Shown here: one piece after another, positions 21,001 through 24,000 of the stretch | How positions within the stretch are numbered: the stretch's first letter is position 1 | Layout of the letters: the number at the start of each line of letters is the position of its first letter | NCBI GenBank assembly: GCA_965226885.1 | Contig: CBDDEL010000012.1 | Location: forward strand, 32,001-96,000 | Direction: 5' to 3' | Source: Opitutales bacterium | GTDB taxonomy: Bacteria; Verrucomicrobiota; Verrucomicrobiia; Opitutales; UBA2987 | Length of the DNA: 64,000 nucleotides | Position numbers: made by a program

Positions 21001-24000
21001 CAGGTACGTCAAGGTTTAGGGTTTGGGAGTTGGTTTTGGGGATTGGCTTGGGGTCGGTGAGGAGGCCGGAGGCCGACGAGCCGGGCCCAAGGCGTTTATT
21101 GTTTTGTGCCACGGCGACGGCGTCGAGCATCGCGCAAGCGGTAGCTTTGCCCGTTGGCTTCGAGGATATGCACCCGATGGGTGAGTCGGTCCAGCAGAGC
21201 TCCGGTGAGCCGTTCGGAACCGAGCACTTCGATCCAGTTCTCAAAGGGCAGGTTGGTGGTGACGATGAGACTGGTGCGCTCGTAAGCGCGGCTGACCACG
21301 TCGAAGAGCAGTTCGGAACCGGTCTTGGAAAAAGGGACGTAACCGAGTTCGTCGAGGATGAGTAGGTCGAGCCTTTCGAGTTGCTTCATGAAGCGCTGCA
21401 GGTCGTGGTTGTCGCGTTGCTCGAGCATATGGGTAACCAGGGCGGTGACCCCGAAGAAACGGATCCGCCGGCCCTGGGCACAGGCGGCAAAGCCCAGGGC
21501 GGTGGCCAGGTGCGTTTTACCGGTACCGGCGTTACCGAGGAGCAGCACGTTTTCGCGCTGGTCGACATACTCCCCGCGCATGAGCTCTCGGATGAGCGCT
21601 TCGTTGAGCGAGGGCTGCGCTTCAAAGGCGAAGCTCTCGAGGGTCTTGAGCACGGGGAAACGGGCGTTTTTGATCCGCCGCTGGGCGGCCCGCTGTTCGC
21701 GTTCAATGAGCTCCCGTTCGACCAGATGCAACAAAAAGGCGGCGTAATCGAGCCGGTCCCGGGAACAAGCCGCGGCCACCGCCGGCCATTCGCGCAGGAT
21801 GGTGGGCAACTTCAGTTTCTTGAGGTGATGGTGTAACAGCAGCTGGTTTTTTTCTTCCTTCATAAAGCCCCTCCTGGAATCTTGAGCAGTTCGCTGTAGG
21901 CACCGAGGTCAGGGGCGGCCACACGGACGTGACGCAGGTGTGGATGGCCGTCCAGCCGGAAGGTTCTGCTCCCGTAGTCTTCCTGAGGATAGAGATACTG
22001 GGCGATGGCCTCACGAGTCAGTCCCCCCACCCGCAGGGCCGAGACGACGGCCTGCTGCAAGGCCGCCATGGGGTGTTTCTCCAACAGCCGCAGCACCCGG
22101 ATATACTCCCGGGTGCCTTCGCCCCCGCATTGGCTTTCGAGCCGGCGTCTGAGGACCTGCAGGCACTGCGGCAACTGCCAGCCCGAGAGTGGGCGGGCGA
22201 AGTCCAAAGCGCCCGGTTTTTTCTCCAGCAAAGCCAGGTAGTGCACCGGCTCGAAAGAGACTTGCTCTTTATCCCAAATGCGGCGGTGCCGGGCCACCTC
22301 TTGGCCCCCACAGAAGATCACCACCTGCCGACAGGACCCTTCCACCACCACCGGATGGTGGGCGCAGCGCACCGGCACCGAATAGTCGTTGCACTCGAAG
22401 CGCACCAGCGAGAGGCTGCTGACGCAGGTCGAGCGTTTGCGGCTCGCTTCAAAGGGTATGGGCGGCAACGCCAGCATGACGGCGCGCTCCTCGGCCAGCA
22501 GTTCCTTTTTCACCGCCCTTTTCCCGCGTAATTTACGCTCCATGTCCCGCTCACATGCCTCCAACAGCTTTGCGTTGAGTTCCTCCAGGTCCCGAACCTG
22601 CGGTACCGGTACCAGGAAGTTGGCCCGGGCATAACGCACGATCCCCTCGACCACGCCCTTCTCGTTGGGCCGGGCGGGCAGACAGAAGTGTTCCTCGAAC
22701 AGGTAATGGCTCTGTAGCTGCAGAAACCCGTCGGTCAGCTTGCGTTCACGCGAACCGATAATCTTACCCACCGCCACCTTCGAGTTGTCATAGCTGATGC
22801 GCCGGGGCACCGCCCCGAAAAACTCAAAAGCTCGCAGGTGCCCCTCCCAGAAGCTCTCCGTGCACTCCCGTTCGAACACCTGCACGAAAAAGGCATCGCT
22901 GTAGGGCAGGCTCATGGCAAAAAATGGCCGCCTACGCAATTGCCCCGCCTCCTTCACCAGGGCATGACCGAAGTCCACCTGTCCCTCCCCGGGGCGGTGC
23001 TCCAGCGGCACGAACACTTCCCGCCGCCTCGCTCGCAGCTCGGCCACCACCTCCTTGACCGCCGTGTAGCCCCCTTGGTAGCCCTTCTCCCGACCCAAAC
23101 GCTGGTAGATCCGTTTGGCCGTATGGCGCTGCTTCTTGGGCACGTTCCGGTCCGCTTTGAGCACCTCCTCGATCCAGCCCACATACGGATCGATCTTGCG
23201 CTCTCGCCTCTTCTTGCGCCGGTATCCCGGCGGCTGGGAATAGGCCAGGGCCAGCATCTTTCCCAGGGTCTCCCAGTGCAGTCCCTCTTCTCGCATTACA
23301 GAGCGCTTGCTCTACTTGTCCCGCAGCACTTTGTGCCGCACTCTTGTCCATTGCTTCATATCTCGATACACTCCTCCTTTCTAGGATAAGCGTACCGGTT
23401 TTAAAGCGCCCTCTTTACCGTACCGGTTTTTTCCCGGCGTTTACACTACCCGGATTCGATCATCAAATAACCAAGAAAAGGATTGAAAAATCATAGTGAA
23501 AGCAGAAAATTGGATCGAAATATTGGAATGCAGCTATTTTCAACGATTATTAATGTTCATATGGGAAATCTCGGAATTTATCTGACTTTGGACCGACTAT
23601 TGCCTATCTGAACACTGATCAATTATATATCGGCATGGATAAAACTTTCAGGGAAACTAGGAAAGCCAGCTAATATGTGTGGGATTGTGGGATATACGGG
23701 TCATTCCCTAGATGAAAGGAAATTGCAAAGGGCAGTCGATTCCCTCCATCACCGGGGCCCTGACGGGAGCGGGATATACATCGATCCGCATCAGTGTGCG
23801 GGGTTGGGACACGCCCGTTTGTCGATCATCGACCTGGAAACCGGGGCTCAACCACTCTACGCCCAGAATGATGAATTGGTGCTGGTTTGCAATGGGGAGA
23901 TTTACGACTTCGAACGGATCAGACATGAACTCGAATTAATTGGTCACGTATTCTATACTAAAAGCGATTCGGAGGTAATCCTGCATCTCTATCGGGAGTA

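What a model noticed while it worked through the whole genome (the two positions that open the first line are those of the whole stretch)
23453..23574. Solo right ends of an IS1380-family element sit in front of genes and always point into them
Thirty-three short relics (36-165 bp, mostly a 93-bp unit) of the right end of the IS1380b element, inverted repeat included, are scattered over the genome without the rest of the IS. In all 24 cases where an ordinary gene lies within 300 bp beyond the end, that gene is co-oriented with the relic, that is, it is read outward from the IS end. Full-length copies and end fragments of the other IS types show no such bias. About half of the relics are cut at the same place, one or two bases before a TTGCCA/TTGAAA-16-GAAAAT promoter-like motif. 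The relics are best read as retained outward promoters, or as leftovers of ISEcp1-like units that brought the gene in. 9 of 20 genes behind them have their [...]
Evidence so far: Call 117: 46 matches reach the IS1380b right end and 33 start beyond position 1,500 of 1,700; the next gene is co-oriented in 31 of 33. Call 120: a non-IS gene lies within 300 bp in 24 cases and is co-oriented in 24 (binomial p 1.2e-7); on the other side of the relics 6 of 18 point away. Controls: outward-facing ends of full-length copies of 11 IS families are 20-67% co-oriented (families with >=14 cases 32-67%; e.g. main IS1380 type 46 of 99 and 59 of 92, IS1-like 44 of 95). End fragments of ten other IS families: 86 of 161. 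Call 121: in the aligned relics, 17 begin at or within 2 nt of ATTGCCAAA. Call 125: TTGAAA-16-GAAAAT (9 of 12) is found on the gene-ward strand in the copy before asnB. [...]
(Added by a program. Inside this text positions count along the whole contig: contig position 32,001 is position 1 of the stretch shown here. "Call 12" and the like, gene names such as g00115 and contig names such as C1 are that model's own, and its searches are not shown. The text may have been shortened before it was handed on; [...] marks where a part breaks off. The agent that wrote the report below was given it as the finding of a first reader that could run no searches.)

Follow-up and report, generated by a model that had tools for sequence, protein, structure and literature searches.

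The report
Leftover IS1380 ends heading captured genes
Short leftovers of one end of a jumping gene sit in front of dozens of ordinary genes in this bacterium and always point into them, most likely because that end both switched those genes on and helped move them, as is already known for related jumping genes that spread antibiotic resistance.

Summary
Window 23453-23574 is the last 122 bp (positions 1579-1700, 91.8% identity) of a 1700-bp IS1380-family element. It ends exactly at the IS terminus, 100 bp before an asnB-like gene, and an IS21-family element cuts it on the left. The genome has 38 such right-end matches. With my own ORF calls, 23 of 23 non-IS genes within 300 bp beyond the end are co-oriented. 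Five more diverged relics give 5 of 5 and a congener gives 10 of 10. The abundant main IS1380 type gives 52 of 102.

New here:
- Relics cluster; six lie within 13 kb of the window.
- At 9 of 9 informative loci the gene behind a relic is relocated, strain-specific or at a synteny break.
- In a congener, a 6.3-kb unit from a full IS to a downstream relic is flanked by a 6-bp target duplication, so a relic end served as a transposition end.

Best reading: remains of ISEcp1/ISPme1-like transposable modules with a fixed outward promoter. Promoter activity is still only inferred. The "same cut" claim is weaker: 16 of 38 here, 3 of 17 in the congener. This is a new member of a known kind, of moderate interest.

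The parts
23453..23574 (+). Relic 1: terminal 122 bp (positions 1579-1700) of the IS1380-family element 'IS1380b', including its right inverted repeat; ends at the IS terminus
   Evidence: blastn 91.8% identity to the reference copy, end at position 1700
23483..23510 (+). Promoter-like site TTGAAA-16-GAAAAT inside relic 1, pointing at asnB. The family-wide form is TTGCCA-17-nAnnnT at IS positions about 1610-1638.
   Evidence: consensus scan, 9 of 12; aligned relics. Not tested for activity.
23675..25693 (+). asnB-like asparagine synthase (672 aa), 100 bp beyond relic 1, co-oriented
   Evidence: Pfam PF00733, PF13537. The gene is present in three congeners in three other contexts, with homology limited to about -44 to the stop codon.
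21096..23446 (-). IS21-family element (istB 21096-21863, istA 21860-23296) whose end abuts and truncates relic 1. Its far boundary lies below 21096 and was not mapped.
   Evidence: Pfam PF01695, PF22483; its terminal 45 bp is repeated about 80 times in the genome
25989..26081 (+). Relic 2a (IS positions 1608-1700)
   Evidence: promoter-like TTGTCA-16-GATAAT, 10 of 12, at 25990-26017
26134..26205 (+). Relic 2b (IS positions 1629-1700), the second copy of a 124-bp tandem duplication that includes 52 bp beyond the IS end
26325..27545 (+). D-2-hydroxyacid dehydrogenase gene (406 aa) behind relics 2a/2b
   Evidence: Pfam PF02826. Window 26309-27556 is 99.7% identical to G004:C21:1914-3161, against 86-90% for other shared genes.
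27572..27668 (+). Fragment of an IS21-family left end between the dehydrogenase gene and relic 3
   Evidence: alignment to the IS21 end at 23330-23452
27689..27784 (+). Relic 3 (IS positions 1608-1700). Its counterpart in G004 is the right boundary of a TSD-flanked 6.3-kb unit.
27835..29487 (+). Aldehyde dehydrogenase gene (550 aa), 50 bp beyond relic 3
   Evidence: Pfam PF00171
30247..30383 (+). Relic 4 (IS positions 1564-1700)
   Evidence: TTGAAA-16-GAAAAT at 30292-30319
30504..32231 (+). GHL10-like glycosyl-hydrolase-like gene (575 aa), 120 bp beyond relic 4
   Evidence: Pfam PF02638
36159..36293 (-). Relic 5 (IS positions 1566-1700) on the minus strand, cut on its left by a copy of the main IS1380 type
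33359..36172 (-). FG-GAP repeat protein gene (longest ORF 937 aa) directly beyond relic 5, co-oriented. The true start is probably inside the ORF, downstream of the IS end.
   Evidence: Pfam PF13517, PF01839
36300..37874 (+). Copy of the main IS1380 type (1575 bp, about 325 copies in the genome), used as the control family

Best explanation
The 122-bp stretch is the right end of a 1.7-kb IS1380-family element. It is one of about 45-50 short right ends in this Opitutales genome.

The proposed sequence of events is:
1. The element inserts a few to about 250 bp upstream of a gene. Only insertions whose right end faces the gene persist, because that end carries an outward promoter (TTGCCA-17-nAnnnT, about 60-90 nt before the terminus) that replaces the promoter the insertion cut off.
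2. Like ISEcp1 and ISPme1, the element then moves together with the DNA beyond its right end, as a transposable module. This places genes in new loci and builds clusters of co-oriented units, each made of a right end followed by a gene.
3. The transposase part is later lost by deletions and by insertions of the many other IS elements. The right end in front of the gene stays (promoter fixation). A solo right end can later serve again as the right boundary of a larger module.

Shown: identity of the relics, the orientation rule, the clustering, the relocation or strain-specificity of the genes behind relics, and one TSD-flanked unit that ends at a relic.
Inferred: promoter activity, selection as the cause of the rule, and transposition by this element (rather than recombination among other ISs) as the cause of most relocations.
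For: Identity.

Orientation rule:
- 23 of 23 in G000.
- 5 of 5 for additional diverged relics found with an nhmmer profile.
- 11 of 11 in congener G004 within 300 bp. One of these is an IS gene by similarity to a ~50-copy family, leaving 10 of 10. The G004 loci are not orthologous to the G000 relic loci.
- Controls with the main IS1380 type give 52 of 102, 14 of 24, 64 of 105 and 3 of 7.

End asymmetry: 38 short right ends against 10 short left ends for this element. The ratio of short right ends to long copies is 38:9, against 56:269 for the main type.

Promoter-like motif: the scan calls sites in relics 1, 2a and 4. The -35 T-T-G is at least 90% conserved among 31 distinct solo relics. Four diverged type-2 relics all keep TTGNNN, a 17-nt spacer and a -10 with A at position 2 and T at position 6 (read by eye).

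Mobilisation:
- In G004 (L154), a full IS, an enolase-superfamily gene, the same dehydrogenase gene as in the window, an IS21 fragment and a 96-bp relic form one 6.3-kb unit. It is bracketed by CTTATA, which is positions 79-84 of the interrupted target IS copy.
- In G000 the same relic is followed by the aldehyde dehydrogenase gene instead.
- Two G004 genes and one G000 gene sit behind relics while their ancestral loci, defined by synteny with other congeners, lack them.
- In one of these, the IS end abuts the gene's native upstream DNA at a TTAAA site 19 bp before the ATG.
- The block of relic, katG-like gene and peroxiredoxin gene is a 3.9-kb insert between flanks that are 0.33 kb apart in G002.
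- Two further relic-headed blocks have no match in three congeners, and flank homology starts within 17 bp of the IS fragment's edge.

Clustering: 16 adjacent pairs lie within 10 kb, against 4.4 +/- 1.9 at random.

Known family behaviour: ISEcp1 and ISPme1 have outward promoters, form transposable modules, and leave fixed remnants (passages of PMC9330008).
Against: - There is no transcript start. The RNA runs were available only as contigs and gave nothing on the relics.
- The consensus match is moderate (9-10 of 12). The region as a whole has 14 promoter-like sites against 8.2 +/- 3.2 in shuffles.
- Conservation is high along the whole relic, not specifically at the hexamers. The best-conserved block in the left half is TTGAAAG, which lies in the proposed spacer.
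- 13 of 38 G000 relics and 9 of 17 G004 relics start at or beyond position 1621 and lack the -35 box, yet all 16 of these with a nearby non-IS gene are co-oriented.
- No TSD-flanked unit was found in G000 itself.
- In 3 of 3 relocations the donor locus lacks the gene. This also fits recombination among the roughly 1,500 IS genes of this genome.
- No intact transposase of this element is left. All four full-length G000 copies carry TGG->TAG, and the G004 copy is frameshifted.
- The background rate of non-synteny in this heavily rearranged genome was not measured, and I chose the 10 loci for their unique flanks.
Confidence: 0.62

Rival explanations
1. In-situ promoter donation only. The element inserted upstream of resident genes and its body later decayed. 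The genes were never carried by it. The relocations and islands come from homologous recombination or composite transposition among the other, far more abundant IS families.
For: - The IS end abuts native upstream DNA of the gene in one case.
- Relic left edges often abut other IS families: IS21, the main IS1380 type and a 165-copy IS.
- 1,540 of 4,824 ORFs belong to repeats with at least 4 copies.
- Donor loci lack the gene in 3 of 3 relocations, and one now holds a 164-copy IS.
Against: - The G004 unit runs from an IS1380b left repeat to a relic's right repeat and is flanked by a 6-bp duplication. That is the signature of transposition by this element's own ends.
- The moved segments are gene-sized (0.86-1.55 kb) and start 2-40 bp from the IS end.
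- None of the 9 informative loci shows the simple in-situ pattern.
Confidence: 0.2
2. Neutral debris with an orientation-specific insertion mechanism. The element chooses both its target and its orientation relative to the downstream gene, for example through transcription or a polar target. The relics have no function.
For: - Relics that have lost the proposed promoter are still co-oriented, 16 of 16.
- The pile-up of left edges is not replicated in G004.
- A crude longest-ORF test on 55 related full-length elements from other phyla gives 38 co-oriented against 17 (p 0.006). This could reflect an insertion preference.
- There are no expression data.
Against: - No such mechanism is described for this family in the passages read.
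- It does not explain why right ends outnumber left ends 38 to 10, or why short right ends outnumber long copies 4 to 1.
- It does not explain why G000 left edges pile up at the edge of the -35 box (16 of 38, p 3e-7).
- The related main IS1380 type shows no bias.
Confidence: 0.12
3. The 93-bp unit is a small mobile element in its own right (a MITE-like portable promoter) that spreads independently of the full IS.
For: - Many copies have similar length.
- Four internal-deletion derivatives keep both ends and look MITE-like: C1:28439-28658, C15:103314-103605, C16:781803-782179 and C17:636909-636995.
Against: - The 93-bp solos have no left inverted repeat and no flanking direct repeats (sequences, read by eye).
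- Their left halves fall into at least two sequence subfamilies, so they are not copies of one truncated progenitor.
Confidence: 0.03

Closest known systems
ISEcp1 (IS1380 family) transposition units and truncated ISEcp1 remnants upstream of resistance genes
   Same: - Same IS family by transposase model.
- An outward promoter lies between the transposase stop and the right repeat. ISEcp1's is TTGAAA-18-TACAAT, as quoted in PMC9330008 (passages).
- DNA beyond the right end is mobilised, and the whole unit is flanked by a short target duplication.
- Remnants keeping only the promoter-bearing right end are known. A ~200-bp ISEcp1 remnant before blaOXA-232 is described under 'promoter fixation' in PMC9330008 (passage).
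   Different: - The transposase is only 23.9% identical to that of ISEcp1.
- The host is an environmental Opitutales bacterium and the cargo is ordinary metabolic and stress genes.
- The pattern is genome-wide (dozens of relics, in clusters) rather than a single locus.
- In the one resolved unit, the right boundary is a genuine solo right repeat, not a chance look-alike sequence.
ISPme1 / IS1247a transposable modules (TMos) of Paracoccus
   Same: A single IS1380-family copy mobilises adjacent chromosomal segments of variable length in an environmental bacterium and carries a strong outward promoter (passages of PMC9330008 and PMC3281130).
   Different: TMos were captured experimentally with an intact IS. 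Here only decayed ends remain, and no intact transposase of the element is left in the genome. Promoter strength is unknown here.
Putative mobile promoters (promoter reuse in prokaryotes)
   Same: Highly similar non-coding sequences sit in front of unrelated genes, and some of them are known IS sequences (passages of PMC3575422).
   Different: Here the source element, the exact end, the orientation rule and one mobilisation event are identified.
MITEs derived from IS elements
   Same: Short non-autonomous derivatives of the same IS exist in this genome: four internal-deletion copies that keep both ends.
   Different: The solo right ends lack a left repeat and lack target duplications.

Membership tests
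IS1380 family (parent element) | DDE transposase matching the family model | tested here: met
   NCBIfam NF033539, 334.9 bits against a cut-off of 180; Pfam PF13701, E 4e-115. Only 23.9% identity to the ISEcp1 transposase over 92% of the query.
IS1380 family (parent element) | Single-ORF element of about 1.6-1.7 kb with terminal inverted repeats | tested here: met
   1700 bp, one 445-aa reading frame interrupted by a TAG, terminal repeats identical at 17 of 22 positions
IS1380 family (parent element) | Short target-site duplication on insertion | tested here: inconclusive
   A 6-bp CTTATA duplication flanks the G004 unit. None was seen around the G000 copies: the four full-length copies are one insertion inside a segmental repeat of at least 7.4 kb, and the others are truncated or interrupted.
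ISEcp1/ISPme1-type transposable module | One IS copy plus DNA beyond its right end moves as a unit flanked by one target duplication | tested here: met
   One case: G004 L154, a 6.3-kb unit from the left repeat of a full IS to the right repeat of a downstream relic, inserted at position 84 of another copy. A later insertion of cargo into a single IS followed by recombination would give the same structure and is not excluded.
ISEcp1/ISPme1-type transposable module | Cargo is foreign to the locus where it now lies | tested here: met
   9 of 9 informative loci are relocated, strain-specific or at a synteny break. One further locus was uninformative. The loci were chosen by me and the background rate was not measured.
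ISEcp1/ISPme1-type transposable module | Outward promoter in the right end drives the adjacent gene | not testable with these tools
   Only consensus matches of 9-10 of 12 and the orientation rule. The RNA runs were contigs without start information.
Fixed promoter remnant (as for truncated ISEcp1) | Remnant retains both promoter hexamers and faces the gene at short distance | tested here: inconclusive
   25 of 38 G000 relics start before position 1621 and keep the -35 and -10 region. 13 of 38 do not, and three of those keep the -35 box through an internal deletion. In one search's 23 cases the distance to the ORF start ranges from overlap with the longest-ORF call (-26) to 243 bp.
MITE | Both terminal repeats, target duplication, no transposase | tested here: not met
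   The solos have only the right repeat and no flanking direct repeats. Four other internal-deletion derivatives do have both ends.

The most novel reading that the evidence does not exclude
The solo right ends are not just debris. They form a working two-function cassette head, combining a portable promoter with a reusable transposition end. IS1380-type modules would use these heads to assemble integron-like arrays of single-gene units, such as the six units within 13 kb of this window, and to re-mobilise them in blocks. They would also pass them between co-occurring species: the dehydrogenase gene is 99.7% identical between two species whose other shared genes are 86-90% identical.
Probability: 0.25. 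Interest if true: 0.7.

Novelty: new member of a known kind. Interest (0 to 1): 0.5.

Why it matters
ISEcp1-type capture and activation of genes is mostly known from clinical resistance plasmids. Here the same logic appears genome-wide in an environmental Verrucomicrobiota (Opitutales) genus, acting on ordinary genes: asparagine synthase, dehydrogenases, a catalase-peroxidase, a permease and a phosphatase. The relics mark which genes were recently moved or rewired. If the promoter activity is confirmed, the relics would be a ready map of IS-driven regulatory rewiring and intragenomic gene shuffling in a genome that is 24% IS genes. The TSD-flanked unit would be a natural example of a solo right repeat reused as a module boundary.

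Tried and rejected
- RNA evidence. Three metatranscriptome runs held 6-10% of the sampled words, and only as assembled contigs. Nothing lay on the relics or on asnB. A few exact-match pieces lay inside the aldehyde dehydrogenase and GHL10-like genes. The pieces over the dehydrogenase gene differ by about 4%, so they come from another organism. The tool notes that DNA can be present in such libraries. No start, strand or expression level can be read, so this neither supports nor contradicts a promoter.\n- Rfam scan of window 23300-30600 at E <= 1: 0 matches.\n- RNA folding of the relic and of the predicted leader: z-scores +1.56, +0.82, +1.11 and -0.01, so no structure beyond shuffles.\n- Target duplications linking IS1380b left ends to downstream right ends in G000: none convincing among 16 left ends.\n- Nested-insertion model, in which modules insert at position 1607/1608 of a resident copy. 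This would explain both the arrays and the shared cut. I saw no duplication of positions 1602-1607 before relic 3, so it stays untested rather than excluded.\n- Erosion by point mutation as the cause of the sharp left edge. Rejected, because the relics are 76-97% identical inside and unalignable immediately outside, so the edges are physical breakpoints. The exception is the subfamily cases, where a diverged homologue of positions ~1575-1607 continues upstream.\n- Family-wide orientation test on 55 of the 80 related loci from other phyla (longest ORF of at least 100 aa beyond the element): 38 co-oriented, 17 opposite. The test is crude: no gene model, many high-GC genomes, 14 of the 38 ORFs run out of the IS end, and several loci come from one genome.
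Full report
**1. What is at the coordinates**

Window 23453-23574 is repeated in the genome. By extending the longest copies I defined a 1700-bp parent element at G000:C10:133218-134917. Its terminal inverted repeats agree at 17 of 22 positions, and it has one reading frame of 445 aa. The protein matches NCBIfam NF033539 'IS1380 family transposase' (334.9 bits, cut-off 180) and Pfam PF13701. It is only 23.9% identical to the ISEcp1 transposase.

The window stretch equals positions 1579-1700 at 91.8% identity and stops at the last base of the element. On its left it is cut by an IS21-family element (istB and istA at 21096-23296) whose end is repeated about 80 times in the genome. 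On its right, 100 bp on, an asnB-like gene starts. By the closest asnB relatives the genome belongs to Opitutales, Verrucomicrobiota.

**2. The genome-wide pattern**

Of 82 blastn matches to the element, 38 reach the right end and start beyond position 1480. They are not all clean solos:
- Six are internal-deletion derivatives with other IS pieces just upstream.
- Two pairs are duplicated loci.
- Two are halves of a 124-bp tandem duplication.

I made my own gene calls with a dicodon model trained on 605 long ORFs. It gave 4,824 ORFs covering 83% of the genome. I marked repeat genes by copy number.

Orientation results:
- 23 of the 38 have a gene with at most 2 copies within 300 bp beyond the end, and 23 of 23 are co-oriented (p 2.4e-7).
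- After removing a shared gene, a duplicate locus and three ORFs under 100 aa, the count is 18 of 18.
- A profile search found further, more diverged relics. Five of these have a non-IS gene within 300 bp, and 5 of 5 are co-oriented.

The same procedure gave no bias for the 1575-bp main IS1380 type: 52 of 102, 14 of 24, 64 of 105 and 3 of 7. Fisher's test of 22/22 against 52/102 gives p 4e-6. Short right ends of the element outnumber short left ends 38 to 10 and outnumber long copies 38 to 9. For the main type the ratio of short right ends to long copies is 56 to 269.

**3. Replication in another species**

All four congeners among the 30 relatives searched hold the relic, as does one genome of another family of the order, by a single weak match (E 7e-5). 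No other relative searched holds it.

I fetched all 20 matching places of G004. It has one full-length copy, two partial copies and 17 short right ends. Eleven short ends have an ORF within 300 bp, and 11 of 11 are co-oriented. One of these neighbours is an IS gene, leaving 10 of 10.

None of the G004 relic loci corresponds to a G000 relic locus. These are therefore separate events, and the relic-gene pairs turn over between species.

**4. New observations: clustering and gene mobility**

Relics are clustered. Sixteen adjacent pairs lie within 10 kb, against 4.4 +/- 1.9 for random placement. The window alone has six relics within 13 kb. They head asnB, a 2-hydroxyacid dehydrogenase, an aldehyde dehydrogenase, a GHL10-like gene and, on the other strand, an FG-GAP protein.

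I compared ten relic loci with congeners. I chose the loci for their unique flanks. One was uninformative. The other nine:

| Locus | Result |
|---|---|
| asnB (G000) | Present in three congeners in three other contexts. Homology runs only from about -44 to the stop codon. One congener has a diverged relic 290 bp upstream. |
| Dehydrogenase gene (G000) | 99.7% identical to a G004 copy with a different upstream. Other shared genes are 86-90% identical. |
| Relic + katG-like + peroxiredoxin genes (G000) | A 3.9-kb block between flanks that are 0.33 kb apart in G002. It truncates a neighbouring gene. |
| Two-relic island: BNR, PhoD-like and a small gene (G000) | 3.8 kb with no match in three congeners. 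Flank homology begins exactly at the IS fragment's edge. |
| Permease gene behind an internal-deletion derivative (G000) | Not found in three congeners. |
| Gene at C16:446654-447512 (G000) | Lies in G002 between two blocks that in G000 are 1.9 kb apart on C11. A 164-copy IS now sits there. |
| Gene at C16:454855 (G000) | Downstream synteny is kept, upstream synteny is not. |
| First gene in the G004 island L161 | Sits behind a relic, while the syntenic native locus in G004 lacks it. |
| Second gene in the G004 island L161 | Same as above. In addition, the IS end abuts the gene's native upstream DNA at a TTAAA site 19 bp before the ATG. |

None of the nine shows the simple picture of a relic added in front of a gene that stayed in place. 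I did not measure how common non-synteny is for ordinary genes in this genome. The rate may be high, since 1,540 of 4,824 ORFs (24% of the bases) are repeat genes.

**5. A relic used as a transposition end**

In G004 (L154) the following lie in one orientation:
1. Positions 1-84 of an IS copy A.
2. A full-length copy B.
3. An enolase-superfamily gene.
4. The dehydrogenase gene.
5. An IS21 end fragment.
6. A 96-bp relic (positions 1608-1700).
7. CTTATA followed by positions 85 onward of copy A.

CTTATA is positions 79-84 of A and also precedes B's left repeat. So a 6.3-kb unit running from B's left repeat to the relic's right repeat is bracketed by a 6-bp target duplication.

In G000 the same relic, with the same IS21 fragment before it, is followed by the aldehyde dehydrogenase gene. 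The simplest reading is that the relic's repeat served as the right end of a module.

One alternative gives the same structure and is not excluded: a single IS inserts into A, later receives cargo at position 1607/1608, and is then tidied by recombination.

**6. The promoter question**

The scan tool calls sigma-70-like sites inside relics 1, 2a and 4 (9-10 of 12). It finds 14 sites in the 7.3-kb region against 8.2 +/- 3.2 in shuffles. Across 31 distinct solo relics, the T-T-G of TTGCCA is at least 90% conserved. Four diverged relics of a second subfamily all keep a -35-like hexamer, a 17-nt spacer and a -10 with A at position 2 and T at position 6 (my reading).

Against a simple promoter reading:
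- The whole relic is well conserved.
- The best-conserved block of the left half, TTGAAAG, lies in the spacer.
- 16 of 16 relics that start at or beyond position 1621 are still co-oriented.

The orientation rule therefore records a condition at the time of insertion. Selection for outward transcription explains it well, because the ends lie from a few to about 250 bp before the ORFs, where an insertion would cut off the native promoter. That explanation is an inference.

There is no Rfam family and no RNA structure. The available RNA runs are contigs and say nothing about transcript starts.

**7. The shared cut**

In G000, 16 of 38 relics start at positions 1596-1614 (p 3e-7 against uniform). 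Several points weaken the claim:
- Three of the 16 share a 210-bp upstream module that occurs 11 times in the genome, so they are one lineage.
- Several others continue upstream as a diverged A-rich homologue of positions ~1595-1607.
- Two join the end of the transposase frame directly to this place. That suggests deletion between the short repeats CCAAGAGAAA and CCAAGGAAAG (my reading).
- In G004 only 3 of 17 start there (p 0.25).

The pile-up is real in G000, but it is not a clean signature of promoter retention.

**8. Comparison with what is known**

A review states the following for the IS1380 family (PMC9330008, passages only):
- ISEcp1 and ISPme1 carry complete outward promoters.
- They mobilise DNA next to the 3' end by using a downstream sequence that resembles the true repeat (transposable modules).
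- Remnants of ISEcp1 that keep the promoter can stay fixed before a gene.

PMC3281130 (passages) describes such modules in Paracoccus. PMC9208149 (passages) reports IS1380 elements over-represented between tandem genes. PMC3575422 (passages) describes 'putative mobile promoters', some of which are IS sequences. A search for Opitutales together with insertion sequence, transposase and expansion found no paper. I did not search for this specific genome.

The present case is therefore a distant new member of a known kind. The new aspects are:
- The scale: dozens of relics, in clusters.
- The setting: an environmental genus with ordinary cargo genes.
- The strictness of the rule: 38 of 38 over three sets.
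- A genuine solo repeat serving as a module boundary.

**9. Verdict**

Interest is moderate.

Noticed in passing
whole genome G000: The IS load is extreme. 1,540 of 4,824 ORF calls belong to repeats with at least 4 copies, covering 24% of the bases. Families have about 325, 215, 165, 145, 81 and 49 copies.
   Followed up: partly
G000 versus G004: Several IS families are 99-100% identical between the two species, while unique shared genes are 86-90% identical. This suggests recent exchange or invasion of ISs across species.
   Followed up: no
G000:C9:19524-21253, C10:133218-134917, C11:167381-169080, C16:946863-948548: All four full-length IS1380b copies carry the same in-frame TAG where older partial copies have TGG. 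They lie inside a segmental repeat of at least 7.4 kb, so they are one insertion copied four times. The single full-length G004 copy is frameshifted. No intact transposase of this element was seen.
   Followed up: yes
window 26309-27572: The 2-hydroxyacid dehydrogenase segment has 60-118x word depth in DNA run X4, against about 8-13x for its neighbours. Contigs of four runs diverge right after 27572, where the IS21 fragment begins in the window. The gene seems to exist in several organisms or contexts in that community.
   Followed up: partly
window 26005-26252: A tandem duplication with a 124-bp period includes the last 72 bp of relic 2 and 52 bp beyond it.
   Followed up: no
G000:C14:20249-20460, C16:562679-562890 and 9 other places: A module of about 210 bp, repeated 11 times, lies directly upstream of several relics. 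Once it lies inverted. Its last ~30 bp look like a diverged homologue of IS positions ~1575-1607, so it may be the tail of a lost sister element.
   Followed up: partly
window 23542-23555 and the same place in all relics: A near-palindrome TATGAA-nn-TTCATA lies about 20-33 bp before the IS terminus (TATTAATGTTCATA in relic 1) and is highly conserved among relics. It could be a transposase or regulator binding site. Not examined.
   Followed up: no
window 27696-27669 (minus strand): The strongest promoter-like match of the region (TTGACA-16-TATACT, 11 of 12) points away from relic 3 on the opposite strand. It is created by the TTGTCA variant of the -35 box.
   Followed up: no
window 23675-25693: Outside the genus, the closest relatives of the asnB-like gene are at most 61% identical and come from other phyla (Hydrogenedentota, Nitrospirota, Gammaproteobacteria and others). 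This is consistent with acquisition by the genus.
   Followed up: no
G000:C1:28439-28658; C15:103314-103605; C16:781803-782179; C17:636909-636995: Internal-deletion derivatives of the element, 87-390 bp long, keep both ends and look MITE-like.
   Followed up: no
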